Assembly: GCA_000503875.1 (NCBI GenBank)
Contig: CP006913.1
Location: forward strand, 900,001 to 932,000
Length of the DNA: 32,000 bases
From: Candidatus Saccharimonadota bacterium
GTDB taxonomy: Bacteria; Patescibacteriota; Gracilibacteria; Absconditabacterales; Absconditicoccaceae
Reading direction: 5' to 3'
Shown: piece after piece, positions 2 through 32,000 of the stretch
Numbering within the stretch: position 1 is the stretch's first letter
Layout: each line of letters opens with the position of its first letter
Program-made: the position numbers and the translations under genes
The notes under the pieces: generated by a model
What the model was told of the DNA's origin: nothing
The model's database searches: none
What the model saw: only the letters and a program-made list of their open reading frames with translations

Positions 2-934
2 AGCACCAAATATGGTTGGGCAAAATCGCTCTACACCATTATGATTGGAAACTTTCGAGTACCTGAAAAAGTGTCCGGACTCAACGAAGATAGTATTCAA
101 TACAAGGAACTCACCGACAATGAACGCAGAGCCTACGATGGAATTCTTTCTTTTCTTATTTTTCTCGATAGTATCCAAACCGTCAATCTCCCTAATTTTT
201 CGGATTACATCACAGCTCCAGAAGTCAGTCTTCTTCTAGCAATCCAAACCTATCAAGAAGCTATTCATTCCCAAAGCTATGCAACTATTTTGGAAAGCGT
301 TGTGGAATCATCCAAAAGAGACGACATCTATTATTTCCGAAGAGACAATCCAATTCTTCTAGAAAGAAACCAATACATCGGACAAATCTATCAAAATTTT
401 ATGGACAATCCCAATGATGATAATTTTTTCAAAGGTTTAATCTGAAATTTTTTATTGGAAGGCTTATATTTTTACAATGGATTTGCTTTTTTCGATACCC
501 TTGCTGATCATCAAAAAATGAAAGCTACCGATAGAATGATCAATTATATTCGTAGAGATGAACTTACTCATGTAACCATGTTTACCTATATTATCAAAGA
601 AATTCAAAAAGAATTTCCTCAAATATTTGATAAAAAAGTAGTATACGATATGTTTCAAAATGCGGTAGAACAAGAGATCAAACGATCACAATTCATTTTG
701 GGAAACAACATAATCTGAATCAACCATCAGACTACAGAAATTTATACCAAATGGTTAGCCAACAATAGATTGAGCCTAATTGGCCTCGAGCCCCTTTACC
801 CAGACATCACCGAAAACCCCTACAAGCACCTCGAACGCCTCCAAGACAACAACTCAGAAAAATCTAATTTTTTTGAATCAACAGTAACTAATTATACACA
901 ATCTAGTAGTATGAAAGGAAATCGAGATTTTTAA
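2..934 (+). CDS. Ribonucleotide reductase class I beta (R2, NrdB/NrdF-type) subunit, 5' end cut by the window edge
   Basis: Frame 2 reads through TGA at 443-445 and 716-718 to TAA at 932-934. R2 hallmarks are present: GNF[CGA]VPEKV (the FW.PEE motif), QEAIHSQSY, YIRRDELTHV and NIIG(TGA)IN...YTKWLANNRL. The two track ORFs 41..445 and 455..718 are in the same frame. Confidence 0.9.
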
Positions 935-977
935 AAAACTATTAGCAATCAAAAATAAAAACTATATATTTTCAACC

Positions 978-2171
978 ATGAAACTCCTCAAACAAATCAA
1001 CAAAGCGCTCGCTTACGTGATAATCATTTTTATCAAAATCTACCAATTCACGCTCTCGCCAGATAAGAGCATATTTTTCTTATATCTCAGAGGAAGAGTC
1101 TGTGCGCATCATCCTCACTGCAGCCAATATAGCATCAATGTCCTCAAAAGATATGGATTTTGGCCAGGAATTTTCTATGCTTTTGACAGAGTTTTACATT
1201 GTACACCAAGCATGACCATCAATTACGATCCTGATCACTACAAAATAGTTTTCTTCTCATCAGCTCCTATTGGAGTACCTTTTTTGCAAGAATTAGCAAA
1301 AGACAAAAGATTTGAAGTTGTAGGGGTTGTTACTCAATGCGACAAACCGCAATGAAGAGGTATGGAAACCTGTGAAAATATTATCAAAACTGAAGCCAAA
1401 AAGATATTTCCAAATCAAAACGAAAATTTCATCAATACTCCAACCAAACTTAATCCAGAAAAATCGGAAGAAGGAAAAGAATTTCACAAGCGACTCACGT
1501 CAAAAGAGCCAGATTTCCTAGTTGTGATAGCCTACGGAAAGATCATCCCAGAAAATATTCTTGATATAGCTAAGATAGCCCCTATCAATGTCCATGGATC
1601 AATTCTCCCAAAATATCGCTGAGCATCTCCTATTCAGTCTGTTTTCCTCAATAGAGAGAAATCATCAGGGATAACTATCATGAAAATGGATAAAGGAATG
1701 GATACTGGAGATATGATCGACATCAAACAAACCAAACTCCACTTTGATCGAACTTGCAAAGATCTTATCGAACGAATGAAGTCAGAATGACCAGCATTCC
1801 TAAATGACACCGTTCGAAAATTCGGTAAAAAAGTCCTTGGACACAAAAAACAAGACGATGATAAAGCTACTTATTGTTCCAAAATAGAAAAAGAAAGCTG
1901 ATTAATCGACCCTTACAAGGATTCATTGGAAGAAATTTATAACAAATATCGCGCCTTCTTTCTTCGACCAAAAATTTATTTTATACATAATGGGAAAAGA
2001 GTTATTATCGAAGAATTACAACGAAATGAAGCAAGTTATAACGAAGAAAAACACACGCCATTACTCAATATTCAACACGCAACACCCAGGACAGTGAAAA
2101 CACTGAAAGTGAAACCAGAAGGAAAAAAGCCAATGGATCGAGATTCATTCAAAAATGGATATTTAAAATAA
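978..2171 (+). CDS. fmt: YidD (membrane protein insertion efficiency factor) fused in frame to methionyl-tRNA formyltransferase
   Basis: A single frame-0 ORF runs from ATG 978 to TAA 2169-2171 with four in-frame TGA. The first ~85 aa match YidD (IYQFTLSP, CAHHPHCSQYS, GFWPGIFYAFDRVLHCTP..NYDP). Fmt follows only 3 residues later (KIVFFSSAPIGVPFL, VVTQCDKPQ-G(TGA)-RG, NVHGSILPKYR-G(TGA)-ASPIQ, RAFFL[CGA]P). There is no stop or ATG/GTG/TTG at the junction. Confidence 0.85.
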
Positions 2172-2218
2172 CTACGAGCAATAAAAAGAACAAACAAAGA
2201 AACTCGACTAATAAAAAG

Positions 2219-2347
2219 GTGAGCGTTTACATTTTTAGGTGAAGAAAATACATGGAGTCGAATTTGTTTGTGTTTTCTACCGTTAAGAAAATGTAACAGC
2301 TCACGAGGGGTTTTTGGTTACTTTTTGACCTGGGAGCAAAAAGTAAC
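2219..2347. ncRNA. Structured intergenic element of unknown class, made of a long irregular hairpin plus a perfect 11-bp hairpin
   Basis: 2219-2233 (gtgagcgtttacatt) pairs with 2290-2304 (aatgtaacagctcac) at 13 of 15 positions. The helix continues inward (2238-2240 with 2279-2281, 2243-2248 with 2273-2278, and further). A second hairpin pairs 2317-2327 (gttactttttg) with 2337-2347 (caaaaagtaac) around a 9-nt loop. The strand is undetermined. Confidence 0.25.
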
Positions 2348-2480
2348 ATAGAAAATATCCCAGCAGAGTAATCAAAATAAATTTTATTTATTTTTTATTG
2401 TGAGAAAACTAGATAACTTTATGAAATAGATAACAAAATACTATTTTGTCAAATAAAAGGCGATTTTCATGTCGCTTTTT

Positions 2481-2508
2481 TTGCTTTTTAAAAATTTCTA
2501 GATATAAT
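2481..2508 (+). promoter_or_regulatory. Sigma-70-like promoter upstream of the 2549 gene
   Basis: TTGCTT (2481-2486), a 16-nt spacer, then TATAAT (2503-2508), about 40 nt upstream of ATG 2549. Confidence 0.35.
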
Positions 2509-2548
2509 AAATCTGTTAGTCCTTTAGTACCCAATAACACGCCAATAT

Positions 2549-4027
2549 ATGGAAGAAAACAAGAATCAAACAACTCCACAACAACCAGCCAAAGCCGAAG
2601 AAAATACAATCGACTTTAGCAAATTTTCACTTTGATCAGAAAATACACAGATACCAAATGCAGACGCAAATGTTTTTCAACAAACACCTGAAAACAATGG
2701 AAAACAAGAATCAAAGACACAAATCACAGAACAAACAGAGACAAAAAACCTTATTGCTGAACTCAATCTAATACAACAAGATACAGCACCTGACGTAGAT
2801 ATATCAAATATTATTATTGAAGAAAGTAAGCCAGAAAATAAAGAAGCTCCTATTTTGGGTTCAAGTGGAATTGGAAAACAAGCCATAACACAAAAATCAA
2901 ATACAAAGATAGAACAAGTAATGTCTGCTTATATAGTGATAACTATCTCTATTATAGCTATTTTCTTTATCAGTTTATACAATAAATACATTTCATTATC
3001 TGTAGATACAACACAAGCAACAAGCCAAACATTTGTGGAAAAAGTACAAATAGTTACCAAAGTAATCAGCGAACAAACAAACATCAACGAATATGCCAAA
3101 CGAGCAGAAAAAACAGATGTTTTAACCAGTGATGATGCTAAAAACACAACAAAAAGCGTAATTCAAAGCCAAAAATTAAATTACTTACATAAGAAAGATA
3201 TTTTAGAAAAGAATATGACAGTATTAAATGAAAAAACTATACAAAACGCTCAATCATTAGATAACATCAAGAAAGAAATTATAAAATATGGATTTATTCC
3301 CCAACAATTATATAATATTATAGAAACACAACAAGGAACTAGTGGAATCAAAAAGAGAATTGCATTAATGGAAAATATTAGATTTTTGACAGCATTCAAA
3401 GCATTTTCTTATATGGAAAGTTTTATCCAATGATTAGCTAATAATTTGGGGAAAGATCCTCTTATTGTTGAAAGTAAACTCAAAAAAACAGTTGTAGATT
3501 GAGAAAAAGACATCGTAGTATATACCAATACATGTTTTCTAAATCCATATGAGATAACAACTAATTGTAGTATGATAGAAGATTTCGATAATTATTATAA
3601 AATAATAGATACCCAAAGAACAGTTGATACAGAATTTATAAAGCAATTAGCAACATACGTAGACAACAAGCTTCAAGAAACAGATGTTCCAACATTTAGT
3701 ATCAACTTTATAAAGTTCAATCCAAAAGAAGAAACTCTAGATTTTACTATAGATTTAAACACTCACTCTCAAGATGAAATAGCACTAAACAAACAAGGAA
3801 TATTAAATCCTCACGTATTTATTGTAACAAATTTAATTAATTTATTAAAGCAAAGTTTGCTCGTTATTGGAGAAGATATTAAAGCAGATCAAATAAAAAC
3901 TAATCCAAAAACAATTAGAGTGGGCTCTACCGTTTTTACGGTTAATAATTCATCAATTAAGATGAGTTTACCTATACAAAAAAGTAGTCAAAGAGAAATT
4001 AGTGACTTTTTTAGTAGCAAATACTAA
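2549..4027 (+). CDS. Hypothetical single-pass membrane protein (~492 aa) with an acidic low-complexity N-terminus
   Basis: Frame 2 is open from ATG 2549 (TAG lies upstream at 2525-2527) through three in-frame TGA to TAA at 4025-4027. One hydrophobic helix is present (SAYIVITISIIAIFFISLY). Track pieces 2855..3433 and 3572..4027 share the frame. I recognise no family. Confidence 0.7.
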
Positions 4028-4032
4028 TATTC

Positions 4033-5529
4033 ATGGAAAACATCAAGCAGGAAAAGGCTATTATGAAACCAATAATAGATCCAGAACAAATCAAAAAGGC
4101 AAAAGAAATGGCTATATATGCACGAAATATTGCAAAAAATTTTTTTCATAGCAAAAAAAACGATAAAAAAACAATAATTTTTATTGCTGGAGTTTTGTCT
4201 TTAATAGCTATATATCTTGGAATATCTCTTTATATAAAAATTTCAGCATTAAATAAAGATCCATACTCTCTAGAAAAAATAAACCAATATGACATCACTA
4301 ATCTAAAAACAAATACGTTAACAAGAAATAGTATTGCGTCCGCAACGACAATATATGATCTGATTCAAAATAATGAAGACATTCAAGACGAAACTCAAAG
4401 ATATAACAAATACAAAGAAAATTTGCTCTATCCTTATACATATTTTTTACAATATCTCTTATTACCAAAACTCAATATTCGAAAAGAACCATATACTGAT
4501 ATTCTAAAAACAGATATTTTAGGAAGAAGTTTTTTGGAAGAAAATCCATATAATGATATAAATCTTCTCCAAAGACGAACTGATTTTTTTAGTTCGACAG
4601 ATCAAAACGAAATAAATCAAATTAAAGACATAAAAATCAATGATATTCAAGAATATGAAAATGGTATTTTCGGTATAAAAATCGATTTCTCTTTTGTATC
4701 ACCATCAAAAAATGCTCTTTTGTTTTTAACAGACAAAATTACGACAACATCTGATGAAGAAAATATCAGTTTATTAGGTGAATTTTTCTATTATCTTCGA
4801 CAACAAATAAAAATAGATAGGAAAGATTTTTTGGACGAACAAATTAAAAACGGATTATTTTCATGAGAAAATAACATCAATAAAACGCTTTGATATCATT
4901 TTTACAATCGAATTATCAACGATGAAGATAGCGATTTAGTTGACGACACGACTATAAATAGAACTATTTTTACCATGATGGGTTGTTCTCCAGAAACCGA
5001 AAGCCAATGTTTTTATAGATTTAGAGAAAAATATAGAAATATTGCAGGACTAGCATATACTGTAGGAATGAAAGATAATACAAACAAAACAGAAGATCTC
5101 AAAGATTTTTTAAAAAATATGCCACCTATTATTGCTGTGCAAGAATTCATGTATACAAAAGTTCAAGAATCTTCTATAATCAAACAAAATACTTCCAAAT
5201 TTGAATGAAAAATATCATTGGAAATTTATGGACAAAGTATTTCTCCAGAAGAAAGAGATGAAATTGCGGTAGATTTATGAAAAAAATGTTTTGCAGACAA
5301 TAAAATTCTTTCCCCTGAAGAAGTACTAAATACAATCAATGAAACTATCAGAAAAAAGTCAGATCTCATAGAAGAGAATCAAAGCAAAGCAAATAGTATT
5401 CGAGATCTCAAAACAATTATAGAAAATATTGGTACCAATTACGAATGACTAAGTAATTACAGAAAAACTATTAAATTATTTGAGATGTATAGAATGCTCA
5501 ATGAAAACTGATTATGTAAAACTATTTAG
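4033..5529 (+). CDS. Hypothetical single-pass membrane protein (~498 aa)
   Basis: Frame 1 is open from ATG 4033 through six in-frame TGA to TAG at 5527-5529, checked codon by codon. A TM helix is present (IIFIAGVLSLIAIYLGISLYI). It starts 5 nt after the previous gene. I recognise no family. Confidence 0.7.
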
Positions 5530-5530
5530 A

Positions 5531-5554
5531 AAAAAATCCCTCCGGGGATTTTTT
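5531..5554. terminator. Bidirectional intrinsic terminator between convergent genes
   Basis: aaaaaatccc tccg gggatttttt forms a GC-cored stem flanked by an A-run and a T-run. It lies between the stop at 5527-5529 (+) and the yebC stop at 5553-5555 (-). Confidence 0.6.
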
Positions 5555-6302
5555 ATTTAACATTAGTCCAAACTTTATCTACATCTTCATCATTTTCCAA
5601 AGCGTCAACAAGCGTATGTAATTGATCTAAATCTTCACCAGATAACGAAATTTCATTTTGTGGCAAAAATTGTAAATCTGATTCTACAATATGATATCCC
5701 AAAGTATCCATTGCTCTGGAAACTTCTGTAAAGTTAACTTTCTGAGCAAAAATAACAGCAACTCCTTCTTCAATAGAAATATCATCAACAGGAAGTTCCA
5801 ATACTTCCATTTCTACTTCATCTTGATTGAGCGGCAAAACTGTTTCCACCTCATTTCCCTTAATTATTTCTTTTTTAATTTTTCCATCAGTTACAATAAC
5901 TCATTTTTCATCAAATTGCCAAGCAACAGATCATTGTTGCCCCAAAGAACCACCAAACTTATTTAAGGTTGTTTTTACATTGGTAGCAGTTCTATTACTA
6001 TTAGACGTCAATGTTTTGATCACTAATGCGCTTCCAGCGGGACCATATCATTCGTAAAAAATCTCTTGTAGATCCTCTCCTTCCAATTGGCCAGACCCTT
6101 TTAAAATAGCTCTTTCTACAATATCTCTAGGTACACTATGGTATCTTGCTTTTTGTAAAACTAAATCCAAACTGGGATTCATTTTCGGATCTGCTCATTT
6201 TTTTGCGGCTATTTGAATAAGTTTGGAAATCATTGCATATGCTTTTGATTTTCAAGCGTCTCAAGCTGCTTTTTTTGCAGCAATACTATGTCGTCTTCCC
6301 AT
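5553..6302 (-). CDS. yebC: YebC/PmpR-family DNA-binding transcriptional regulator
   Basis: The minus-strand frame is open from ATG (6302-6300) to TAA (5555-5553), 249 aa. Motifs: MGR[CGA]HSIAAKKAAGDA, YE-G(TGA)-YGPAG, TSNSNRT, C-terminal DEDVDKVWTNV. Confidence 0.9.
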
Positions 6303-6328
6303 AAGAATAAAAAATAAATAAAATATTT

Positions 6329-6787
6329 TTAGTTAATATAATTCAATTCAACACCAATTTCCTTAAAAATTTCTTCTGATTCACTACTAGCTTCATTTTT
6401 TTCTTCACAAACAACTTTCTTTATTCCAGAACTAACAATAAGCATTGCGCAAGTTCTACAAGGAGTTACTTTACAATACAAAGTTCATCATTCAACAGAA
6501 ACACCGAGTCTCGCTGCCTGACAAATTGCATTTTGTTCTGCATGAACAGTTCTCATACAATGATTGGTTACATTACCATTTTCATGAGTAACTTGCTTAA
6601 AATGATGTCAAACTTGATCACAATGAGGCATTCATGATGGAGAACCAACATATCATGTTACCAACAAACGATTGTTTTTTGCTATTACACAACCACTTCT
6701 ATCTCTATCACAAGTTGCTCTCTTAGCGATAGATCTTGTGACCTCCATAAAATATTCATCCCACGTTGGTCTGACATATAAAGACAT
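6329..6787 (-). CDS. dCMP (deoxycytidylate) deaminase, ComEB-like
   Basis: 152 aa. N-terminus RPTWDEYFMEV, zinc-ligand motifs VHAEQNAI and TPCRTCAMLI. In-frame TGA occurs at Gly-compatible sites. It lies 26 nt upstream of yebC on the same strand. Confidence 0.9.
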
Positions 6788-6960
6788 GACAAAAAATAGG
6801 AAATAAATTGGCAAGAATATATCCTTTTAAACAGCAAAATCAATAAATAATCTTGCACTTTTACCTTATTTAACTAAATATAACCTGCTACTCTCAATCA
6901 TTACTAGTGGCAACGAAACAATCCAAACTATTAGACTTTTTAACTATTGATCTCTATATT

Positions 6961-7854
6961 ATGATTCTCCGATGAAAAGAACTCTCAGTTAAAATGCAAG
7001 AAAACCTAAAATTAAAAGCAAAAACTTTGTCAGATAATTCTTACATGGCAATTCTTTTTTTTGGAAATGATTTTTCTTCAGGAACATACGTTCGTCACAA
7101 GCAAAAATATGGTGAATCAATATGAGTTCCCGTTAAAATTTTTACTGAAGAATGATTTTCTCCGCTCGTACAAGAAAAAGAAAGTTTTGCAAATCGAGTT
7201 TTCAACCTAATACATCAACTCAATCACGATTCATTTTGTATAGGAATTATTATCCAACTACCACTTCCTGAAGAACTTAAATGACACCAAAACGAGCTTC
7301 TTTCCACAATTTCACCCGAAAAAGATATCGACGGACTTTGATGAGTAAATACTGGACTCTCTTCAACAGGACTTATTGATTTTATCCCGGCAACACCAAA
7401 AGCAGTTATCACCCTATTGGAAGAATATAAACTCGATAATCTCAAAGGCAAAAAAGTAGCCATTATTGGACAAAGCAACATAGTTGGAAAGCCACTTATT
7501 ATGGAATGTATCAAAAGATGAGCAATCGTTTCTTCTTTTAATATCGACTATACTCCAGAAGAAATCAAACAATTTACACAAAAATCTGACTATATTATTG
7601 CTTGTACTGGACAAGTACATTTGGTTGACGATTCACGAATTCGCCACGATCAAAGCCAAATAATTATAGATGTAGGATATGGACACATTGACGGCAAACC
7701 CGTCGGAGATGTAAACATTGAGAGTATCGCGGACAAAGTTTTCGCCTATACCCCAGTTCCCGGATGAATAGGTCCGCTTACCGTAGCCTGCCTTTTCGAC
7801 AACATTTTCACCTTACAATGATACAAAAAGATATTGGAAAAATATAGAGGATAA
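6961..7854 (+). CDS. folD: Bifunctional methylenetetrahydrofolate dehydrogenase/cyclohydrolase
   Basis: Frame 1 runs from ATG 6961 to TAA 7852-7854. Motifs: YVRHKQKYG, GIIIQLPLP, EKDIDG, IIGQSNIVGKP, IIIDVG, TPVPG-G(TGA)-IGPLTVA. Confidence 0.92.
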
Positions 7855-7886
7855 AATTACAATGTTTTATTTATTAAAAAATAATC

Positions 7887-8255
7887 ATGGAAATTTCTAT
7901 TTTCTTGGCAAAATTTTGGGGAAGTTTGTTTATGATCCTTGGTGTATTGTCTATTTTAGCAAAATTTTTGAGTAGAGTTATAGAGTATACAGAAGACAAA
8001 ACCATTACGATATCTACCGGTTACATTACTTTTTTGTTGGGTTTAGCAACCGTTGTTGCACACAATGTTTGGGTAGCTGACTGGCCAGTCGCTGTCACAA
8101 TTTTGGGATGGATTACCTTATTCAAAGGTATTGAAAAAATTGGATTCCCCGATCGCGTTAATAAAAAAGCACAAATGTTCAAAAATCAGCCAGTAATTTG
8201 GGGTAGTGTTATATTTTTAATAGGGGTTTGATTTTTTTGGATTAGTCTAAGATAA
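7887..8255 (+). CDS. Small integral membrane protein (~122 aa, 3-4 hydrophobic helices)
   Basis: Track ORF 7887..8231 continues through one TGA to TAA at 8253-8255. The sequence is strongly hydrophobic. I recognise no family. Confidence 0.6.
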
Positions 8256-8352
8256 GAATCGACATAAGATTAGTCACGAACGTTATAATTTTTCATAAAA
8301 AATACTAGATCCACAAACATAAAAAATTTAGTTATAGTATTAAAAATGTATG

Positions 8353-8955: not shown

Positions 8956-8987
8956 ATTTACATAGTAAAAAATTAAAACGCAATCAT

Positions 8988-9015
8988 ATTATATCTTTTT
9001 TTACTATTTTGTCAA
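8988..9015 (-). promoter_or_regulatory. Consensus sigma-70 promoter for the 8353..8955 gene
   Basis: On the minus strand: TTGACA (9015-9010), a 16-nt spacer, TATAAT (8993-8988), about 33 nt upstream of the ATG at 8955. Confidence 0.5.
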
Positions 9016-9214
9016 ATAATCTCTACACTTAATTTAATTTATTTTAATTAAACAAAATTTCCTCCAAGTAATTGGATAATCGATAAGCACAGACAATAGA
9101 TATTATTTAAATATATTTCATAAGTCATGACTAGTCACAAATATTATATCCAAAAGTCTCTTGAAAAACACTTTAAGAAGAATAGAAAAGGCCCTGTAAT
9201 AAAAAACAAAAACT

Positions 9215-9361: not shown

Positions 9362-9376
9362 GTGACTTGTTTTTTT
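9350..9376 (+). terminator. Intrinsic terminator-like hairpin with a T7 tract
   Basis: caagccac (9350-9357) pairs with gtgacttg (9362-9369) at 7 of 8 positions around a 4-nt loop. ttttttt follows at 9370-9376. Confidence 0.45.
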
Positions 9377-11560: not shown

Positions 11561-11567
11561 AATCTTG

Positions 11568-21400: not shown

Positions 21401-24400
21401 CTGCTATCTCTATAATCGAAGATATCTCTGGAATAATATTTGGAATTTTTGGTGCTGGTGGAAGTAACGGTAATGAAAAATCTATCTTCGGAATAAAAGA
21501 TGGTAACTCTGGAAGAGTTGGTGGTTCAGGCAACAAAGGAATTTCTGGCAAATCATAATTAAATTGAATAGAAAAATCAAATCACGCTGCCAAGTTAAAG
21601 TCAGGAGGTGTAGGTAAATTAGGCAATTGTGGTAATGGAAAATCTACTGGTGTAAAAACAAATCTTGGTAATGCTATACTAATACCCATATCAACATGAG
21701 AAAGATCTATGTTAATGTTTGGAATTTTAAAAGCTGGTATAGGTATGATTGGAATTTGAGGAAACAAAAATCCGAGACTACAACCATGAGATCCATAACC
21801 ATCACGTGAACATTTTCCACATTTTTTTGTCCAGTTTACTGATAGATCTATAATTACTTGCCAAGTTTTTATAGCTGACAAAATAAGGACTAATGCATCA
21901 ATTCGCTTAGCATAAATTTTCGCATTTACATTTACCCATCAAATCAATGTAGATGATAATGTAGAAACAAAATTCATAATATCCGCCATATACCTATCAA
22001 CAAAGTGCATCCAATCATACAATTGCAATGGAAATTGTTTATATTTTTCCAAAATTTGAATATTCTGTTGTACATTTTTTACCAAAGAAGTAGCCTGATT
22101 ATAAAAAGAAGTAAATCAATCAATGTCTGCTGAAAATGTTGCGCATGTAGAAAGACTACTAACTCTATCCTGAATATGTAACAATAATTCTCTATCTTCA
22201 GCTGTTGGGTTTGGTTTTGCACGTAACCAAACTTCTGTTGTTTTTAATCTTGGAAGAGAAATTAATTTTTGTGAGAAAAATTGAAACTGTCTACCTATAT
22301 CAGTAAATACAGCAGGAATATCATCTATAATAATATTTCCTGTTTGAGTAACAATATCTCAATTAATAACTTTTTGAAGAAATATTTTTTCTTTTCATGC
22401 CGAATCAATGAGTTTCTTAAGTGTTGTTGATTGCTTATTCATTTTGTTAATTTCAATTATTTCTTCTTCTAAGAGAACAAGATCTCTCTTTGCTTGAGCA
22501 GGTGTTATACCTCCACAAATAGAAGCCAATTCATGAATAGCCTCGAGCCATTGTTTAAGTATTTTTTGTTGATTTTTAAGCCATCATCTAAGATAACTAT
22601 CATATTTCAAAAGATCATCAGTTGTTGGTAATGGAATTTTGAAAACAATATCTTTCGTATATAAATCCACCAAAGGAACTGATTGAAACATAGTGATAAG
22701 AGATTCAAATGGATTGTTTACTGAAGATGTCATTGCGTTAAAATTTTGTTTTGATCAAATAGCCTTAAGATTATCTAAAGTACTTTGATCCTTAGAAACA
22801 TTTGCATAATTAGCATCATCTTCTTGTGATTTTTCACTTGCGTCTGACCAATCTGCTGCAGAAAACAATGAATCAAATCCATCTGCTAATTGAGAAACAT
22901 CTGGTAAGGTAACATTTATAGTAAGTTTAGTCAGATTATTAATCATATATTTAACTTGTCTACCCAACCAATCTTTGACTAAGGATTTAATAATTCCTTT
23001 TGCATTACTATCCTTAATTTTGAGATCTATCTTTGGTCATTTAACAAAACTCAATGCATCAAAACCAAAACCACTTTCCATTCATCAATAAGAGGTTGTA
23101 CTACGTTTTTTTGTTGGTTTTGAATTAAATGAAATATATCCGAATCAGCCAAAATTTCAATTTGGAACTGCCATTGTCCAAGAAGAATTTTGAGATCCTA
23201 ATGAAGAAAGTCTAAAAGCTGATGGATAAGTAGGTTGTTGAATAATCAATGTATTTGATACTACTTTTGCCGATGATTGTTGAAGTGGTTGTTCACAAGA
23301 ACCATTATTTGCTAAATCAGACATCCAAGGTTCTAATTCTTCTGTAACTGGTTCATCACCAGATCATGATCATCCTCCATTACAAGCATATAAAGGAAAT
23401 GCTACGACAACACAATTTCCTCACAAATCCCTAAAAAGAGGTGGGATAGCTTTTCAAAGAGTTGTTGGTCCAAAACAAATAGCAACTCCCATTTGAAGTG
23501 TTAATGTAGGCACAAGGTAAAGTCTTACCCAAGATGAATAAGATCATACTTGAGGTCATCCAATAAAAAAGTCATCGCTACCAGCCATTCTCACAGGAAA
23601 CCCAAAAATATCTGGCAAAGGAAGGTATCCAGCTGGCGTTGGTCATCGATTACCAGGCACACTGAGAACAGGAAGTCCTTTTCCTAATGTACTACTAATT
23701 GGTTTTAAAAGATTTTGAAAACATCCAAAAATATGATATTCTCATGCCCCCAAAAACGCTTGATTGAATGGTATTTTATTAAAAGGAACTGGTGGTTGAC
23801 AACCGGCTTTTGCTCACAATTTAAATCACTGACAAAGACCATCAAGAATTTTATCTATGTCTTCTGAAACAGGTGCCATCAAAGTATCCAAAGCTTTCAT
23901 ATCAAAAGAAAGATTTGCCTGTCACTGAGAAAACAAATCGGTAACTGTCCATGATTCAAAAAGACCATCCATATCAATTTGATCAAGTATATCATTAACA
24001 CCATCTTGATAATTCGATGCTGATGATCAAGAAGCAAAAGAGTCTGAAGATGTAGTTGGCATTGATCATGCCAAAAGAGCATCTCATTCAGCTTGTCACT
24101 TAGCAGTATATACATCTAATTTCGCTTGAATATTATCATATACTTCATCATAGTTTCTATGACTTTGCGAAGAATTATTAAAAAATACTCGTCTATATTT
24201 TTTACAACTATCTGCCGGGAAAACAATAATATCAGAATATGTATCTTTTTTCTTGTTTGCATCAGAAAACAATACATCCTTAACTTCTATAGAAACCGTT
24301 GGCTCTCAAAGATAAACAACATCATAAGAAAAACGTAAAGACTGACGAAAATCTAAATTAATATCATCTAATACAAAAAGAGCTTCATCGGAATCCAGCC

Positions 24401-27400
24401 ATGTAATATTTTCCTCGGTAAAATTGCCCAATTCTTTTTTGAAAGAAAGTATTTTGTCTGCATCATCAGACAAAATTTCCCAAGGTCAAATCAAGCGGTC
24501 TATATATGTCGCCTCAATATTATTTTTTAGTCAGAGAATTGTTGTCGTTATTTTAACAACATCTCAACTCAATAAAACACCACCATTATTATCTTTGTAT
24601 TGCTTATATACACTAAGAGATGCATCACCAGAAAGTTGAAGAAGCGTTTTGTATCATATATCATCCAAAGAAGAATTTTCTTCATAACTAGGGATATAAG
24701 AAATAGGAGCAACTGTTAATTGGTTTGAAAGACTATCAGCAGCAAGATTTTGAAAAGAATTTGCCATTCATCAAACAAAACTTCACAAATCAAGATCCCC
24801 CATTTCTGGATTCATAGAACCTGTATCGGTAACCAGGTCATTTACTTGATCCGAAGATATTGGTGTCTGAGCATCGATACTCCAGCCTTTAACATGAACC
24901 ATACTTTCATCTTGAATATAGAAATCTGGTTCTATAACTACGCCATAACTCTTCACCAAACGGACGCTTTCTTTTTGTCTAGCATGCCAATCATCATCAC
25001 AAGCATATTGCAAAGTAGACACATAATGTCATTGTCCATTTTTAGATCAACCATAAAATATTTTAATATCTCATATAACATCATTGGTAACAATATCTAT
25101 ATTTCCATCTTTATCCATATCCTCAAAAAACAATTGCTGTAATCATGCAACAGATTCTGGATTTTTTTGGATTTTTGTTCCATCAGCATTTATATTTAAA
25201 CATATCATATTCCCATCAACATCGAGAACTCATTTATCATTTTTATAGACTCTCAATTGTTGATTATTTGTCCATACCAATATATCTGGATAATTATTTC
25301 AATCAACATCTCCTACAAAAATATCTTTAATACTATCAGACAAACGCATCAAGTCTTGCATGTTTGTATAAGGATGCGTTCCTCAATAATTTTTTAATAA
25401 TTTGATAGTTCCATCACTAAACACAGTTATAATATCTGTAAGCCCATCATTATTAATATCAGTATTCAAAACTTTAAAAATAGCCTTTGATGTATTAGTA
25501 TATACTTGTTCACCTATTCATAAATCAAGATCAACAGATTTTATTTCGACATTTTCAGATATTCTAGACAATAGTGGATCTCAAAAATTTATAAGAAATT
25601 GTGAGCCAAAAGGGATTGTTGATTCTCAAACCGTTTTTCCATCACCAAATAAAGTAATGTTTTTAAAATCAGATCTAAATCCAATTCCTTCTGCATAACT
25701 TGTACTATCTTCTATAGAAAGATATCCTTCTTTTTCAAACGTCCCCAAAAGATCAATAATTCAGATTCCTTTTTCTCAATTCGTTGTTCATTCCGCAAAG
25801 GTTATTGTTTTATCATATGCAATACTAGAATAGACAACAACTTCAGATAAATCTAATGATTTATTTGCTGCTTGAATAAAATACAATTTTCAAAGCTCCT
25901 CTTCTTGATAAATAACATTCCAAATACTATATCCTTGATCCATTTTTTCTGACAACTCAATAGACAATCATGAATTCCAAATATCTTTTTTGAAATTAAA
26001 TAATACTTCTCCACTAAATGATAAACTATTATCAGTAAGTTCAAAATTTAATTCTTGTAAAGAAGTGTTTTTAGAAAATACCAAAGAAGCCGAATCTTTT
26101 TTAGACAATTCTTTTGCTGTCTGAAATGGATCTTCAGATGAAAAAAGTGTAAGCGGTTTTGCCTGAGTAAGTGGAATATATCAAATTCCATCAAATTCTG
26201 CAACCAAAGATCATGAAAGAATTTGTAAGGTAACTTCACGTTCAGAAAAATTACGAACTTGACCATGCTCAGAAACAACAGCTGCAAATTTTTTGATACG
26301 TGATGGCTCTACAATTTGGGTAGTAACTGACAAAAGTTTTTCAGAAGAAGAAACTAAATCAGGTACATATGAAGGATCCAAAGCATCTTGTGTCCAAAGA
26401 TTTCATCGATCAGAACCAAAAAGATTAAGATACATAACATTAAGTTTTTTTTCAGGGAGAAATTTTTCTTGAATAACTATTTTTTGATAAGCGGGTGATT
26501 GTTGTTCTAAAGCAAGATCATTTATAGATGCATAAACATATCAAATTCCACCTTTTTCTTTTGTTTTTAAAGAGAAATTATATTGCTCATCACTTACTTG
26601 AACAATTTTTGAAGGAAAATCTAATGCTCAGGTAAATCCCAAAACCAAAGATGTTGGTGTTGAAATAGTATTGCCCCATGCGTCGGTAACAGACAACGAT
26701 CCGCTCAAAGATTCTCAAATAGAAAGAGATGCTGCTGATGTAGTAAGATTAACATGATATGGTTTTCATGAAGTAACAGTAACGGGTATAATTATCGGAT
26801 CTAAACCAGGAATTTGTATCCAGATTTCATCAGTTCCTGCACGATAACTTGGCATAAGAAAGATAGCTTGCTCTGCTTTTTCCAGAAAGAAAGATCCCAA
26901 AGAAACAAAATTTCCCGAAGAGACAACTCAAGGAGTAACCAATCAATTTTTACTAAAAATAGTAAATGGTGTTTGTAATTGAGAGCCATCTTGAGCGCGC
27001 AAAGAAACAATAATTCTCGGTATTGTAGAATAGGTAGAGTCAATTTCTGTAAGAGTAAATTCTAATTTTGATTGTGCTTTATTGTTGGTATAAAGTTTTT
27101 TTGATCAAAAAGATACTTGAAAATCCCCTGGGGTAACAGTAATCGTTTTTTTGGCACCAGCATCTGCTCACGTAAGAGAAAATGTTACTGTGGTCGGTTT
27201 ATTAACAATTGGTGCCTGGTAAACAAGCATAGTATTATCAAAATCAGAAAACTCCATACTCTGTGGTCAAGGAAGTCCTCCTCATATAAATTCTCAGTTT
27301 CCTGTAGCAACATAAACGACATAAGAATCCATAACTCTTGAAACAGAATTACCAGAAAAATCTTTAGCAGATATTGCTATAGGTAATTGCGATCATGCAA

Positions 27401-30400
27401 GAAGTTTTGTTGTTGGAATTTCCAAAGAAAATGTTTTGATTTTTGGTAATAATGAAGTATCATCTCAATCAATAAGAACAATATTTGATCGATATTCTGA
27501 AATATTTCCAGAAAAATCAGCTCATGGAGATTTTTCAGAATTTGTTATCTTACTAAAAGAATTTTTCCAATCATCAAAACTACCCTTCAATCACGATAAG
27601 AATTCTCCAAATGATGGTCCAACTTCCATAGATACATCAAATTTTACTGAAGAACCCAAGGTACTCCACCAACATTGTAATGCAGTAATCCAAGGCATTT
27701 TTCATTTACCTTCTTTTTCTTTTAGATCAAAAATAAGCTCTGTATAACTAGAATCTATTCAACATTGACGTCTTGTCGCAGAAAAAAGATCATTTGATGC
27801 CAAAACAGAATCCTCAATAAAAGTATTGGCAACTGTTTTTTTGTTATCTTGTAATTTTTGGATAAATTTAGGTATTTCTGCAGCAGAAATATAATCAGAT
27901 CTATCAGAATTAATATAAGCGACTTCATATCATGAGGCATTATACGCTGGTGTAATCAGAGATCATTGATCTGGATGTTGAGTAAGATATCCTGAAACAA
28001 TATATGATATTTTTTTGTTTAAATCAAATGCTGTTCTAGTGGCATTCAAATCTTTATCTACATACGTTTCTTTTTGTTTTGTATAGACAGGCAATGTTTG
28101 ATAGTATAATAATTCAGCCAAATCATAAATACGCTGTTTACCAATCAATGACACAAAGAAATCTTCTGGCAAGTAAACAGTAGAACGAGTATTTGGAGAC
28201 GCAAGTGAATCTGAAGTAGCAAGAAAATTAAACGCCGCTGGATTTTTATTGTAATGTTGTTGACGAGTTTTTTCTTGAGCCAAAAGAAGCGTATTATATT
28301 CTTTCGTTTTTGATAAAAGATAATCGAGCATCGATTGATTGATTTCTTCTATAGTCTTAAGGGTAAGAATAGATCATTCTTGTTTATATACCGGTATATC
28401 ATACACATTTGGATATACAAATGTCACCAAGCTTCATCACAATCATTGGAATGTTATACTTCTTGGTCAATCTATTGGCCTATCTGCAGTTGTTTGATTA
28501 AGTCATGGTGTTTTTGTTAGTGGTGGTACTTTATCAACTGTTTTAATTGAATTAATTCCAGACAAAACAAGCGGAATATCAGAAAGAAAGCCTGTTTCTG
28601 TGGCTGCATCTTCAAATGAAGCTTCAAATCATGAAAGAATTTTTATTTCTATAGGCGTAGGTGTTCAATCAATATCCTCAGTAACTGTTGTTGTTCTAAG
28701 TGTATAAAGTGTTTGAGATAAATTATTCAATGATCAGGTAAGTGCATCTATGTAATCACAAACCTGTTTATAAAGATTTGCACATCAACAATAATTAGCA
28801 GTTACGGTTCAACAATTTTGAAGATCATTTATATTTTTTCTCTTTGTTGCCAACAATCATGTAGCAAAAGCATTTGTTGTTGTAATAGATGTATACACTC
28901 AGTTAATCTGAGCAAAAGAATTTGGTAATGAATTATATTGATTTCTTATAATAATAACCTTTTTTTTCAAATCATTACTCCAACCAGAAAGAAATTGTGT
29001 TTTTTGATTGTAGAGCGATTCTATTTCTTGTATTCTATCAAAATAAGACAAAACTAATCAAAAACTCAATGCTGGTAACAAATCAGAACTTTGTTCCAAT
29101 GAAGAAAAAACTCAAGAAAAAGTCTCAATATATTCTTGGTGTCCTGTTTGAGAAAGAATATTTTTAGCTCAAGACAACAAAACAAGAGGATCAGAAGATG
29201 TTAGAGAGACAAAAGAATTAATACCAGAATTAATTTCTTTATTACCAGAAAGCAAAGACAACAAACCAGAATAAGATTGAGAAAAAGAAAGTTTAGAATC
29301 CTCTTGAAGGGATAATAATTCAGTGTTTAAATAATCATAATGTTTCCAAAACAATCCTTGTTCAGAAAATTCATTTTGATAGGTCCCATTAATTTGATCA
29401 GGCGTTGGAGCTGTGTTTTTTACTCTAGAATCTATTGTTTTGTAGGTATAATCAAAGATTTCTCTTTTCCCATCACATTTTCATCACATAGAATCTGAAG
29501 ATTTTCGTTCTTGATTTATTCAATTTACATCAATAGTTTTCCATTTTTTACTTCACTTATCATCGGATTTATTCCAAATAGAAAAATAATCAAGCTCCTC
29601 ATATGATTTACGAATTTTTTTTGTACCAATAAGTTCTCTATATCAATCCTGTTCAGAAGAGTAAATATCCAATGGGTATACTTCAGCATCTTTATCTCAT
29701 TTTAAATATTTAGGATAATCCAATACTCAATAACGATCTTTGACTTTGATAACCGAAGGAAATGATTTTGCACCCAAAAATGAATATGCTGCAGTTTTTC
29801 CTGTAGCAACAGCAGAAGATCAACCTATATTATAAATAGGAAACATTGCTGATAAATAATCATATTGTTGAAGTTTATATACCGGAGGATTTGCAGACAA
29901 TGCACCAGAATCTAGATTAAGACTCGATGCTCATCATCGACCTCTAAGAGAAAAATCTTCTACAGTTTCATCTTTTTCTCAAACACTTTTTGTCTTTTTT
30001 GTCATACAAAAAATATCTATTCGCAAAATCCTAAAATATCTACTACAGCTTATTTGTTTTTTTTGTTTAACTTTATTTTCATTATAGGTGTCATAATCAC
30101 CGGCAGCCGCCATAATATTATATCCTCTATTTGCCTCTACTTGTGTAGCAAAAAGACTATTACTAGCTCCTAATGTTTTTCCATTAGAAGAACCATATCC
30201 TGTATTCAAAAGAGCAACTCCAGAAAAAGAATCTAAATTTCTAAAAGTTCATCTATACGCACTAAATTCTTGTGCTGAAACTATATCTTGAGCAAATGTA
30301 CCAAAATAATAATTTTTATAGAGATCATTTGTTGTTCTTTCACACCAACGTTTAGGAAATATTCAGATTCGTTTCTTTTTGTTAGTTCGATCTTGATGAA

Positions 30401-31598
30401 GAGATTCTGCTATAACAGGGATCGTCATATACCAATTATTGCTCTCAATCTTTTTATCCAATGCTTCTTCCATAGCATCATTAAATGAAATCATAATAGG
30501 CGATATTCATTTTCATGCATCTCAAAGAGTTAGAGAATCTTTCAATGCTACTTTATGGATATGAGAATCTACTCCATCAACCCGTTCTCCACTTCCTGTC
30601 TTTTTATACCATCTTGCTGCGGCCTGCGTGTTGTCTTTGATTGTTGACAAAAAGACACCAGGATAAAGATTTTCATATCTCGTGATTAATTCTTTTATAA
30701 CAGACAACAACATAGTTGTTGGAACACTTGATTCACCCAGAGCATCAAAAGTACCAGCTCATGATAACATAATTTGGGTTAATTCTGGGTTGTTTTGAGA
30801 GACACTTGCCAATCAATCAATCAAATCAGACATATCATCATTTTGAACTTGTTTGAAATAATCAAGCATCAAATTGGTAAATCTATGATATCATATATCC
30901 TCTGTAAACAAGAAATTATTGATATAGAAAGGGAGTGTATCTTCAGCAAATGTTGTTTTCATTGCAACAAAATCATCATACCATAGAAGTGGTGCGACGA
31001 AATCAGCTGGGGCAGCTGCATATTTTCTTAATTTTTGGAAAAAATCATGATATTTAGAATCTTCTGATCAAAAATTAAGTATTCAATGCCAGATTTCCGC
31101 CTGCCCCCTTGGATTATTGTTATACACAAAAAACTGTTGATTTGCATCATAGACAAATTGTTGCTCTTCAAAATCTACATACGGAAAAATCGTAGGATAG
31201 ATAAATCCATTATTTTGAACAACTGGCAACGGAATATCTCAGATAAAAACAGCTCATAACAAATCAGATGTTTCTCATTTTATACCATCAAAATACATAT
31301 TTTCCAACATTCTCACCACATCAATTGCTTTGAAATTTTGAGTATTAATAGGTAAAACCAATGCTTTAGAATTGGAAATACGTTGTTGAATATAATCAGT
31401 AGCATACCATTCAATATCACTTTTTGCATTTTGATAAATATCTTTATCTACAAAAACAGCCACCAAATGAGTCCTATCCAAGGGGTTTTCTGCAAAAACA
31501 GATCAAAAATCAACAAAAAACCAACTCTGTAAAAAGTAGGACAAAGAATATATAAGCAACAAAAGTCAAATCAAATGCCTTTTATGCAAAAAATACAT
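18411..31598 (-). CDS. Giant secreted/surface protein, ~4,395 aa, as a single ORF under table 25
   Basis: I checked every minus-strand codon in the frame whose plus-strand triplets start at positions divisible by 3, either by hand or via the ten same-frame track ORFs (19989..20246 through 31275..31481). No TAA or TAG occurs between TAG at 31760-31758 and TAA at 18413-18411, and well over 100 in-frame TGA are present. The ATG at 31598 gives a signal peptide (MYFLHKRHLIGLLLLIYSLSYFLQSWFFVDFGSVFA/ENP). An alternative ATG lies at 31649. Confidence 0.85.
21415..21790 (-). other. Proline-rich periodic module within the giant ORF
   Basis: FPQIPIIPIPAFKIPNINID ... FPLPQLPNLPTPPDF ... LPEIPLLPEPPTLPELPSFIPKIDFSLPLLPPAPKIPNIIPEI, with recurring (I/L)P-x-(I/L)P units. 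Confidence 0.55.
25040..25470 (-). other. FG-GAP/VCBS-like calcium-binding repeat block within the giant ORF
   Basis: Four spaced DxDxDG-type motifs in beta-strand context: TDINNDGLTDIITVFSDGTIKL, VGDVDGNNYPDILVWTNNQQLRVY, LDVDGNMICLNINADG, EDMDKDGNIDIVTNDVIGDIKIFYGG. Confidence 0.5.
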
Positions 31599-31851
31599 GC
31601 TTGTTTTTCAAGATAAAACTTTCAAACAAAAACATAACAAACAATACATCGCAACTATACAAAAACAAAATCAAAAATAAACAAAAAATCAGATTTTATA
31701 TGCTTTTTCAAATTGACAATTAACGTTAAATGTATACCATCTCTTATGTTTGATCCACTATGGCAAATTTAGGGTTTTAAATATGAAAAAATTCATTATT
31801 ATAAAAAAGATGACAACAATATATTTAGTCACTAATTAAAAAATCTAATAT

Positions 31852-32000
31852 ATGAACGAACCACTTTCATCACTCCTCAGACCACAAACATTAGACGAAT
31901 GTATAGGACAACAACATCTCATTGGAGAAGGTAAACCTATACGTGGTTTTTTGGAACAAAAAAAAATTCCTTCAATGTTATTCCGATGACCTCCAGGCTG
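31852..32000 (+). CDS. rarA: Replication-associated recombination protein A (RarA/MgsA AAA+ ATPase), 3' end cut by the window edge
   Basis: From ATG 31852: MNEPLSSLLRPQTLDECIGQQHLIGEGKPIRGFLEQKKIPSMLF[CGA][TGA]PPG. This matches the RarA N-terminus up to the Walker A lead-in (SMILWGPPG in E. coli). Confidence 0.8.

What the first reader, a model, noticed from the sequence alone, without database searches (positions are those of the whole stretch)
56..31986. CGA codons sit on conserved tryptophan positions, suggesting a second reassignment (CGA -> Trp) on top of UGA -> Gly
CGA aligns with conserved Trp in several independent families.
- RNR R2: FW.PEE (56-58), the EKDW.DYL region (683-685), and possibly the NrdF-like W at 338-340.
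- Fmt: RAFNPWP (1965-1967).
- YebC: HSKW (minus-strand codon at 6293-6291).
- FolD: GDWIK (7636-7638).
- RarA: ILWGPPG (31984-31986).
CGA also lies inside the hydrophobic core of a signal peptide (12493-12495), where Arg would be odd. Conserved arginines in the same genes use AGA, AGG or CGT (IRRDE, YVRHK, G-R-G of Fmt, LRP of RarA). As far as I recall, a computational screen (Codetta, Shulgina and Eddy 2021) inferred CGA/CGG -> Trp in a clade of Absconditabacterales. If so, this window would be from such a doubly recoded lineage, for which I know of no experimental confirmation. Every predicted protein here that contains CGA would be mistranslated by table 25.
Basis: partly seen in the sequence, partly recalled or inferred. 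Interest (0 to 1): 0.8.

Follow-up and report, generated by a model that had tools for sequence, protein, structure and literature searches.

The report
CGA codons read as tryptophan

Summary
The window is 100% identical to contig DPJE01000005.1 of assembly GCA_003543185.1.

Independent tests confirm CGA = Trp:
- Across 1226 alignment columns built from 49 standard-code homologues, 12 of 14 CGA columns are Trp-majority and none is Arg-majority (P = 7e-23).
- Log-odds are W +68.7 bits, against -25.8 for the next best residue (Tyr).
- In 16 closely related species, codons at this organism's CGA sites are CGA 154, TGG 96, CGG 14, and never AGA, AGG, CGT or CGC.
- Its Arg sites never carry CGA or CGG in those relatives.
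- The two CGG codons that could be tested also sit on Trp positions.

Shulgina and Eddy (eLife 2021, Codetta) list this very assembly as UGA = Gly, CGA = Trp, CGG = '?', and papers from 2026 treat the reassignment as known. The proposed mechanism, a tRNA(UCG) charged with Trp, could not be tested because 44 kb of the contig contain no tRNA gene.

One side observation may be new: the choice between CGA and TGG follows strand compositional skew. CGR:TGG is 61:23 for plus-strand genes and 16:79 for minus-strand genes, and the trend repeats in 19 relatives.

The parts
56..58 (+). CGA codon in ribonucleotide reductase small subunit (R2, gene 2-934), at the 'NF-W-VPEK' position
   Evidence: Trp in 64/64 homologues outside the recoded clade. 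In 16 close relatives the codon is CGA 9, TGG 6, CGG 1.
338..340 (+). CGA codon in R2, 'YYF-W-RDN'
   Evidence: Trp in 60/64 and Phe in 4/64 distant homologues. Relatives: CGA 11, TGG 4, CGG 1.
683..685 (+). CGA codon in R2, 'EQEIK-W-SQ'
   Evidence: Trp in 63/64 distant homologues. Relatives: CGA 11, TGG 5.
923..925 (+).
   Evidence: Trp in 34 of 49 homologues that align. Relatives: CGA 11, TGG 5.
1965..1967 (+). CGA codon in the Fmt part of the fused YidD-Fmt ORF (978-2171), at the 'NP-W-P' motif
   Evidence: Solved Fmt structures have T, W, W, W here. Database relatives show W (P0012, P0019) or a mistranslated R (P0006, P0007). Changing R to W raises the Pfam Formyl_trans_C score by 5.9 bits.
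1491..2141 (+). Six further CGA codons in Fmt: 1491-1493, 1749-1751, 1773-1775, 1815-1817, 2022-2024, 2139-2141
   Evidence: Coordinates. These are mostly variable columns. Database relatives show a W/R mix at 1491, 1815 and 2139, and L at 2022. Position 1773 is K/R in distant Fmt, but a close relative has TGG. The net Pfam effect on the N domain is -6.7 bits.
6291..6293 (-). CGA codon 4 of YebC/TACO1-family gene (5553-6302, minus strand), equivalent to the 'GHSK-W' position
   Evidence: Both close relatives that align have TGG and one distant homologue has W. Changing R to W raises the Pfam TACO1_YebC_N score by 5.8 bits.
7636..7638 (+). CGA codon in FolD (6961-7854), 'DDS-W-IRHD'
   Evidence: Solved FolD structures have M, M, W, M at this column. 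Changing R to W raises the Pfam C-domain score by 3.7 bits.
6970..7197 (+). Two further FolD CGA codons (6970-6972, 7195-7197) on variable polar columns
   Evidence: They align with D/S and with E in solved structures, so they say nothing for either reading.
31984..31986 (+). CGA codon just upstream of the RarA/MgsA Walker A motif, 'ML-F-W-GPPG' (gene starts at 31852 and runs off the window)
   Evidence: E. coli RarA (3pvs) has W and 8g28 has Y. Downstream, in L082, a CGG codon of the same gene aligns with W, W, Y.
12493..12495 (+). CGA codon inside the hydrophobic core of a predicted signal peptide (gene 12451-13836, which has 9 CGA in all)
   Evidence: The sequence reads MLKRKFIISTLIII-CGA-GISPFISFG. 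No homologues were available, so this is only consistent with Trp, not tested.
10610..10615 (+). Tandem CGA-CGA in the DnaQ-exonuclease/helicase-like gene (9461-11560); the same gene has a CGG at 11543-11545
   Evidence: Coordinates. No orthologues were present in the fetched loci.
4123..5403 (+). Six CGA codons in lineage-specific gene 4033-5529
   Evidence: In the two close relatives the same sites carry CGA, TGG or TTT, and never an Arg codon.
18411..31598 (-). Giant ORF (about 4400 aa) with 10 CGA, 1 CGG and 50 TGG
   Evidence: The low CGA share fits the strand-skew pattern.
1..32000 (.). Background code: in-frame TGA read as Gly throughout; AGA, AGG, CGT and CGC used for Arg
   Evidence: TGA columns score G +11.1 bits, and TGA swaps with GGA in relatives. 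AGA columns score R +106.8 bits.

Best explanation
The window belongs to an Absconditabacterales (candidate division SR1) genome, genus-level group UBA5124, probably the same species as RAAC1_SR1_1. Its genetic code differs from the standard one at three codons: UGA = Gly, and CGA and CGG = Trp. CGU, CGC, AGA and AGG remain Arg.

**Shown here.** CGA and CGG occupy tryptophan positions. They interchange freely with UGG among related species and never interchange with arginine codons.

**Inferred, not shown here.**
- Decoding is carried out by a tRNA with anticodon UCG, helped by a tRNA(CCG). Both would have lost the arginine identity element A20 and carry Trp-type identity (G73), so that TrpRS charges them.
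- CGU and CGC are read by tRNA-Arg(GCG). There is no tRNA(ACG/ICG) that would bridge CGA to Arg.
- The reassignment was made possible by low G+C (0.31), which drove CGR codons to rarity before they were captured.
- The fully synonymous route UGG -> CGG -> CGA then let mutational bias repopulate Trp sites with CGA.
For: **Source and prior publication**
- The source contig was identified as GCA_003543185.1.

**Profile and column evidence**
- Pfam bit-score change on replacing R with W at CGA: R2 +17.3, Fmt_C +5.9, YebC_N +5.8, FolD_C +3.7, Fmt_N -6.7, FolD_N -2.3; net +23.7 bits.
- A Codetta-like test on 49 standard-code homologue loci gives, for 14 CGA columns, W +68.7 bits against Y -25.8 as runner-up. 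Controls behave as expected: AGA -> R +106.8, TGG -> W +36.3, TGA -> G +11.1.
- 12 of 14 CGA columns are Trp-majority and none is Arg-majority, P = 7e-23. All 18 Trp-majority columns are encoded by CGA, CGG or TGG.

**Codon swaps in 16 related species, over 11 genes**
- At the query's CGA sites (35 sites, 286 cells): CGA 154, TGG 96, CGG 14, and no AGA, AGG, CGT or CGC.
- At its TGG sites: TGG 59, CGA 40, CGG 9.
- At its AGA sites (590 cells): no CGA or CGG.
- In standard-code homologues the same Arg sites carry CGA 130 and CGG 69, which shows that the test can see CGA = Arg where it applies.

**Other support**
- CGG: RNR large subunit codon 614 is W in 51/54 homologues. The RarA CGG aligns with W, W, Y.
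- The phylogenetic boundary matches the published one.
- Trp codon choice tracks strand skew, as expected for truly synonymous codons.
Against: - No tRNA gene was found in the window or in 44 kb of the contig, so the decoding tRNA and its identity elements were not examined here.
- No protein-level evidence exists in the literature I could search.
- A few CGA codons sit on polar or basic columns of distant homologues: FolD codons 4 and 79, and Fmt 1749 and 1773. Replacing R with W lowers two Pfam domain scores. These columns are variable, and close relatives show TGG or non-basic residues at the sites that could be checked.
- Comparative data cannot exclude a minor fraction of Arg insertion, that is, ambiguous decoding.
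Confidence: 0.93

Rival explanations
1. CGA is decoded ambiguously. Competing tRNAs or imperfect tRNA identity insert mostly Trp but a substantial share of Arg, as with CUG in some yeasts.
For: Nothing positive. The decoding tRNAs were not seen, and the 2021 paper itself says ambiguity cannot be excluded without experiment. A few CGA codons lie on polar or basic columns.
Against: CGA never appears at conserved Arg columns in 16 related species. CGA is used at invariant, functionally critical Trp positions in essential genes. On plus-strand genes it is the majority Trp codon, which would be costly if it were misread often.
Confidence: 0.05
2. CGA keeps its standard meaning (Arg), and this lineage has simply replaced many conserved tryptophans with arginine.
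For: It is the default reading, used by table 25 and by public annotations. Replacing R with W slightly lowers two Pfam domain scores.
Against: - 12 of 14 CGA columns are Trp-majority and none is Arg-majority, P = 7e-23.
- Arg is not among the four best-scoring residues for CGA columns, where W scores +68.7 bits.
- CGA alternates with TGG, a two-base change, and never with AGA or CGT in relatives.
- Under this reading the organism would have almost no Trp in R2, RNR, Fmt, FolD and RarA.
Confidence: 0.01
3. CGA encodes another hydrophobic or aromatic residue (Tyr, Phe or Leu) rather than Trp.
For: Some CGA columns are Y, F, L, I or M in homologues: AhpC2 codon 117, RNR codon 17 and FolD 7636.
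Against: Log-odds are W +68.7 against Y -25.8 and F -31.5. In relatives the codon exchanged with CGA is overwhelmingly TGG: 96 cells, against about 20 for all hydrophobic codons together.
Confidence: 0.01
4. The pattern is an artefact of sequencing or assembly error, contamination, or mRNA editing of CGA to UGG.
For: None.
Against: The same pattern appears in at least 19 independently assembled genomes from different studies. The gene frames are intact. Editing would need two coordinated base changes at every site.
Confidence: 0.005

Closest known systems
Absconditabacteria/Absconditabacterales code predicted by Codetta (Shulgina and Eddy, eLife 2021, PMC8629427): UGA = Gly, CGA and CGG = Trp
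   Same: The same reassignment, the same clade and the same assembly: GCA_003543185.1 is listed with CGA = Trp. It also shares low G+C, AGA-dominated Arg usage, and CGU/CGC kept as Arg.
   Different: Nothing in kind.
- This work adds codon-level CGA<->TGG swap evidence.
- It adds support from two CGG sites, where Codetta returned '?' for this assembly.
- It shows that in this 44 kb region CGA is not rare: 54 per 10,000 codons overall, and the majority Trp codon on one strand. The paper describes CGA/CGG as not yet rebounded in frequency.
CGG -> Trp in Anaerococcus and in RFN20 Bacilli ('Onthovivens')
   Same: An arginine CGN codon is captured by tryptophan in a low-G+C bacterium.
   Different: In those lineages only CGG is reassigned. 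tRNA(UCG) is absent, and CGA stays Arg through tRNA(ICG). Here both CGA and CGG are Trp, and the clade lacks tRNA(ACG).
NCBI translation table 25 (SR1 and Gracilibacteria: UGA = Gly)
   Same: UGA is a glycine codon here: TGA columns score G +11.1 bits, and TGA swaps with GGA in relatives.
   Different: Table 25 keeps CGA and CGG as Arg, which is wrong for this organism. BD1-5/Gracilibacteria relatives do keep CGA = Arg or lack the codon.
AGG -> Met in Enterosoma (CAG-288 Bacilli)
   Same: A bacterial sense-to-sense reassignment of an arginine codon, inferred from profile columns and tRNA identity elements.
   Different: A different codon and a different amino acid. In that case the tRNA was shown to descend from an Arg tRNA by synteny; the origin of the CGR-decoding tRNA here is unknown.

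Membership tests
Absconditabacterales genetic code (UGA=Gly, CGA/CGG=Trp; Codetta 2021) | CGA occupies conserved Trp columns and not Arg columns | tested here: met
   12 of 14 columns are Trp-majority and none is Arg-majority, P = 7e-23. W scores +68.7 bits.
Absconditabacterales genetic code (UGA=Gly, CGA/CGG=Trp; Codetta 2021) | CGG also occupies Trp columns | tested here: met
   Only two testable sites: RNR large subunit codon 614 (W in 51/54) and the RarA CGG (W, W, Y). In relatives CGG swaps with CGA and TGG. The sample is small, and Codetta gave '?' for this assembly.
Absconditabacterales genetic code (UGA=Gly, CGA/CGG=Trp; Codetta 2021) | UGA is a sense codon for Gly | tested here: met
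   Genes are intact only if TGA is read through. 4 of 5 TGA columns are Gly-majority, +11.1 bits. In relatives TGA swaps with GGA.
Absconditabacterales genetic code (UGA=Gly, CGA/CGG=Trp; Codetta 2021) | AGA, AGG, CGU and CGC remain Arg | tested here: met
   AGA scores R +106.8, CGT R +6.9, CGC R +11.3. AGG has only three columns and is inconclusive on its own. In relatives these sites never carry CGA or CGG.
Absconditabacterales genetic code (UGA=Gly, CGA/CGG=Trp; Codetta 2021) | Low genomic G+C (0.26-0.38) | tested here: met
   The window's G+C is 0.308.
Absconditabacterales genetic code (UGA=Gly, CGA/CGG=Trp; Codetta 2021) | Phylogenetic placement in order Absconditabacterales | tested here: met
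   The source assembly appears in the paper's Absconditabacteria sheet. Among named relatives, R2 is 89% identical to UBA5124. Codon usage is almost identical to RAAC1_SR1_1.
Absconditabacterales genetic code (UGA=Gly, CGA/CGG=Trp; Codetta 2021) | tRNA(UCG) and tRNA(CCG) with Trp-type identity (G73, no A20); no tRNA(ACG) | not testable with these tools
   No tRNA gene was found in the window, in L001, in L082 or in loci from close relatives. A metagenome pattern scan returned only organellar and phage tRNAs. The published table reports the genes as present (UCG 1, CCG 1, ACG 0), and the paper states that the tRNAs are consistent with Trp.
NCBI translation table 25 | All codons other than UGA keep their standard meaning | tested here: not met
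   CGA and CGG sit on Trp columns.

The most novel reading that the evidence does not exclude
In this lineage the reassignment is complete and at a late stage, not incipient. CGA, CGG and UGG behave as one neutral synonymous family, and their proportions are set by strand-specific mutational skew, probably replication-related. As a result CGA has overtaken UGG as the main Trp codon in genes whose coding strand is C- and A-rich (73% CGR), while UGG dominates on the opposite strand (83%). I did not find this described in the papers read here. It gives a quantitative picture of how a captured codon spreads.
Probability: 0.55. Interest if true: 0.35.

Novelty: already known. Interest (0 to 1): 0.25.

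Why it matters
Sense-to-sense codon reassignments in free-living or episymbiotic bacteria are very rare. This one also changes a charged residue into the bulkiest aromatic one.

The practical consequence is immediate. Every protein from these genomes translated with table 25, 4 or 11 carries wrong residues: R in place of W at CGA, and W or a stop in place of G at UGA. Such errors are visible in public protein databases. They damage homology searches, structure prediction and proteomics.

The discovery itself was published in 2021 for this very assembly. The value of this check is confirmation by an independent method (codon swaps among relatives), a list of diagnostic sites for proteomic validation, and the strand-skew observation.

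Tried and rejected
- **Concatenated protein query.** I searched the large protein database with R2, Fmt, YebC and FolD joined into one query. The hits still proved useful.
- **Table-25 translation look-up.** A table-11 ORF fragment worked. ORF 41-442 was not on record.
- **tRNA search.** ARAGORN found nothing in the window, L001, L082 or 51 related loci. I then scanned metagenome contigs for a tRNA with anticodon UCG and U20. The 80 loci returned were mitochondrial (code 4, cox/nad genes), plastid-like or phage tRNA arrays.
- **Supplements of the 2026 NAR paper.** I looked there for Absconditabacterales tRNA sequences. Only BD1-5 tRNA-Trp(CCA) entries were held.
- **Giant ORF as foreign DNA.** I considered that its TGG-rich, CGT-rich usage meant horizontal acquisition. 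I rejected this in favour of strand skew, because SecA and other minus-strand genes show the same usage, and the pattern flips with local skew in relatives.
- **Rfam.** Searches of the window and of the 2150-2560 intergenic region found no credible family.


Full report
**1. What the window is**

The 32 kb window has 30.8% G+C. Its genes are intact only if TGA is read as a sense codon.

A table-11 ORF fragment from the window was found on one public contig, DPJE01000005.1 (122,663 bp), of NCBI assembly GCA_003543185.1, 'Candidatus Gracilibacteria bacterium'. The window is identical to that contig at every compared position. The one exception is window 2267-2325, which the stored copy replaces with 'NN'.

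Two flanking loci, L001 and L082, extend the readable region to about 44 kb. They add the RNR large subunit, a nitroreductase, two AhpC-type peroxiredoxins, full-length RarA and SecA.

**2. Checking the observation**

All seven cited codons are CGA and in frame. The window's genes contain 54 in-frame CGA or CGG codons in total.

Replacing R with W at CGA changes Pfam domain scores as follows:

| Domain | Change (bits) |
|---|---|
| R2 | +17.3 |
| Fmt C domain | +5.9 |
| YebC N domain | +5.8 |
| FolD C domain | +3.7 |
| Fmt N domain | -6.7 |
| FolD N domain | -2.3 |
| Net | +23.7 |

Alignments to solved structures place the cited codons as follows:
- RarA on W (E. coli) or Y.
- Fmt on T, W, W, W.
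- FolD on M, M, W, M.
- YebC: the N-terminus was not aligned by phmmer, but the ungapped register puts the codon on the GHSKW tryptophan.

**3. An unbiased test with related genomes**

One scan of GTDB species representatives with the R2 protein returned 80 loci, from 92% to 54% identity. I mapped every codon of 11 genes of this organism onto the orthologous codons in those loci, using tblastn with code 25.

In the 16 closest species (R2 77-92% identical, all with in-frame TGA):

| This organism's sites | Cells | Codons found in relatives |
|---|---|---|
| CGA (35 sites) | 286 | CGA 154, TGG 96, CGG 14, 22 hydrophobic or other; no AGA, AGG, CGT or CGC |
| TGG (12 sites) | 108 | TGG 59, CGA 40, CGG 9 |
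| AGA | 590 | no CGA or CGG |
| AGG, CGT, CGC | 165 | no CGA or CGG |

In the remaining loci, which are mostly standard-code organisms including archaea, Alphaproteobacteria and Fusobacteria, the CGA sites are TGG in 530 of 666 cells. In those same genomes CGA and CGG appear freely at the Arg sites (130 and 69 cells at AGA sites). This shows that the method detects CGA = Arg where it applies.

Using only the 49 loci with no in-frame TGA as a reference profile:
- Of 1226 evaluable columns, 18 are Trp-majority. This organism encodes all 18 with CGA (12), CGG (1) or TGG (5).
- 12 of 14 CGA columns are Trp-majority and none is Arg-majority (hypergeometric P = 7e-23).
- A Codetta-style log-odds sum gives W +68.7 bits for CGA, with Tyr next at -25.8.
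- Control codons return their expected amino acids: AGA R +106.8, TGG W +36.3, TGA G +11.1, AAA K, TTT F, GGA G.

The two CGG codons that could be tested (RNR large subunit codon 614 and one in RarA) also lie on Trp columns.

**4. Exceptions**

A few CGA codons fall on polar or basic columns of distant homologues:
- FolD codon 4 (D/S) and codon 79 (E).
- Fmt 1749-1751 (D/E) and 1773-1775 (K/R).

These columns are variable within the clade. Where close relatives could be compared, they carry CGA, TGG or Ala. These sites do not favour Arg over Trp. They account for the two negative Pfam differences.

**5. Already published**

Shulgina and Eddy (eLife 2021, PMC8629427) reported that Absconditabacteria have reassigned CGA and CGG to Trp, in addition to UGA = Gly. 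Their Figure 4-source data 1 lists GCA_003543185.1 itself:
- UGA = Gly, CGA = Trp, CGG = '?'.
- tRNA(ACG) 0, tRNA(GCG) 1, tRNA(UCG) 1, tRNA(CCG) 1, tRNA(CCA) 1.
- Usage per 10,000 Pfam-aligned codons: CGA 25.4, CGG 1.7, UGG 56.3.
- G+C 0.31.

Its codon usage is almost identical to that of RAAC1_SR1_1 (GTDB s__UBA5124 sp000503875), so it is probably the same species. All ten featured Absconditabacterales have CGA = Trp, whereas BD1-5/Gracilibacteria mostly keep CGA = Arg or lack the codon.

My own per-locus analysis reproduces this boundary:
- 19 loci have CGA and CGG only on Trp columns.
- Very low-G+C BD1-5-like loci lack CGA, and a few have CGG on a Trp column.
- Three higher-G+C Gracilibacteria loci carry CGA and/or CGG on Arg columns.

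Papers from 2026 treat the reassignment as known. The original paper states that only experiment can establish in vivo decoding. I found no proteomic test.

**6. Mechanism**

Shown here: CGA, CGG and UGG form one synonymous set, separate from the Arg set.

Inferred from the published tRNA inventory and from general tRNA-identity knowledge (Arg identity depends on A20; Trp identity on G73 and the anticodon):
- tRNA(UCG) and tRNA(CCG) are charged by TrpRS.
- tRNA-Arg(GCG) reads CGU and CGC.
- The absence of tRNA(ACG/ICG) removes the usual link between CGA and Arg.

I could not inspect the tRNAs. There is no tRNA gene in the 44 kb available or in the loci from close relatives. A metagenome pattern scan returned only organellar and phage tRNAs. 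How TrpRS tolerates a UCG or CCG anticodon, and how U34 is kept from reading CGU and CGC, remain open.

**7. Side observation: strand-dependent Trp codon choice**

Over 26 genes in the 44 kb region:

| Genes | CGR:TGG | Four-fold sites | CGT (Arg) codons |
|---|---|---|---|
| Window plus strand | 61:23 | A 919, T 616, C 391, G 138 | 10 |
| Window minus strand | 16:79 | T 1213, A 907, G 192, C 163 | 60 |

- The CGR:TGG difference gives Fisher P = 2e-14. Without the giant ORF the minus-strand ratio is 5:29 and P = 8e-9.
- SecA has 0 CGA and 11 TGG. The neighbouring, oppositely oriented RarA has 3 CGA, 1 CGG and 0 TGG.

In 186 ORFs from 19 related genomes:
- ORFs with C>G and A>T at four-fold sites have CGR:TGG = 314:165.
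- ORFs with the opposite skew have 66:108 (P = 4e-10; Spearman rho about 0.43).
- Where the local skew around R2 is inverted (L008, L013, L014), the preference inverts too.

This is the behaviour expected of neutral synonymous codons under strand-specific mutational bias. The path UGG -> CGG -> CGA is synonymous at every step. It is further evidence for the reassignment. It also suggests a later stage of codon capture than the 'not yet rebounded' description in the 2021 paper. In this region CGA is at 54 per 10,000 codons and UGG at 75. The region is small and contains a single change of gene orientation, so a genome-wide test is needed.

**8. Verdict**

The finding is already known, and was published for this exact assembly. 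Confidence that CGA is decoded mainly as Trp is 0.93. The tRNA-level mechanism was not tested here.

Noticed in passing
Window 1-32000 plus flanks L001:1-6025 and L082:1-6331: The choice between the Trp codons CGA/CGG and TGG depends strongly on strand. Plus-strand genes have CGR:TGG = 61:23 and minus-strand genes 16:79 (P = 2e-14). This parallels four-fold-site skew (C>G and A>T against G>C and T>A) and CGT-versus-AGA use for Arg. The trend repeats in 186 ORFs from 19 related genomes.
   Followed up: yes
L082:1601-4660 (SecA) and L082:5287-6480 (RarA), just beyond window position 32000: These neighbouring, oppositely oriented genes use opposite Trp codons. SecA has 11 TGG and 0 CGA. RarA has 3 CGA, 1 CGG and 0 TGG.
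   Followed up: partly
Window 978-2171 (+): YidD (membrane protein insertion efficiency factor) and Fmt are encoded in one uninterrupted reading frame (Pfam YidD, Formyl_trans_N and Formyl_trans_C). Database relatives P0006, P0007 and P0012 have the same fusion, with a large alpha/beta-hydrolase-like insertion inside Fmt.
   Followed up: partly
Window 18411-31598 (-): A giant ORF of about 4400 aa with an N-terminal hydrophobic segment and stretches that look like FG-GAP/VCBS repeats (for example 'DINNDGLTDIITVFSDGTIK' and 'VGDVDGNNYPDILVW'). No orthologue was found in the fetched loci. I did not run it against family libraries.
   Followed up: no
Window 2219-2304 (+), intergenic region downstream of Fmt: An 86-nt long hairpin, -36.5 kcal/mol for the 136-nt segment, z = -3.2. 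There is no Rfam match. Parts of window 2245-2358 recur at 95% identity at the end of L002, and immediately upstream of R2 in L003 and L005. The stored public copy of the contig has 'NN' in place of window 2267-2325.
   Followed up: partly
Proteins P0002-P0007 (database relatives of R2 and Fmt): Public protein predictions for this clade are systematically mistranslated. They show W where TGA means Gly (code 4 was used), for example 'VMVWNFW', and R at the invariant Fmt 'WP' tryptophan where the DNA presumably has CGA.
   Followed up: partly
Window 10610-10615 (+): Two consecutive CGA codons in the DnaQ-exonuclease/helicase-like gene. They read 'DAE-W-W-YK' under the reassigned code.
   Followed up: no
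Window, L001 and L082 (contig DPJE01000005.1, positions 3504-47802): ARAGORN finds no tRNA gene in 44 kb of contiguous sequence, nor in about 240 kb of syntenic loci from 16 close relatives.
   Followed up: yes
Loci L046, L039, L047 (BD1-5-like, G+C 0.23-0.28) and L030, L024, L035 (Gracilibacteria, G+C 0.37-0.40): Outside Absconditabacterales, very low-G+C UGA = Gly relatives lack CGA entirely, but three of them have a CGG on a Trp column. Higher-G+C relatives use CGA and/or CGG at Arg columns. This matches the mixed picture for Gracilibacteria in the 2021 paper.
   Followed up: partly
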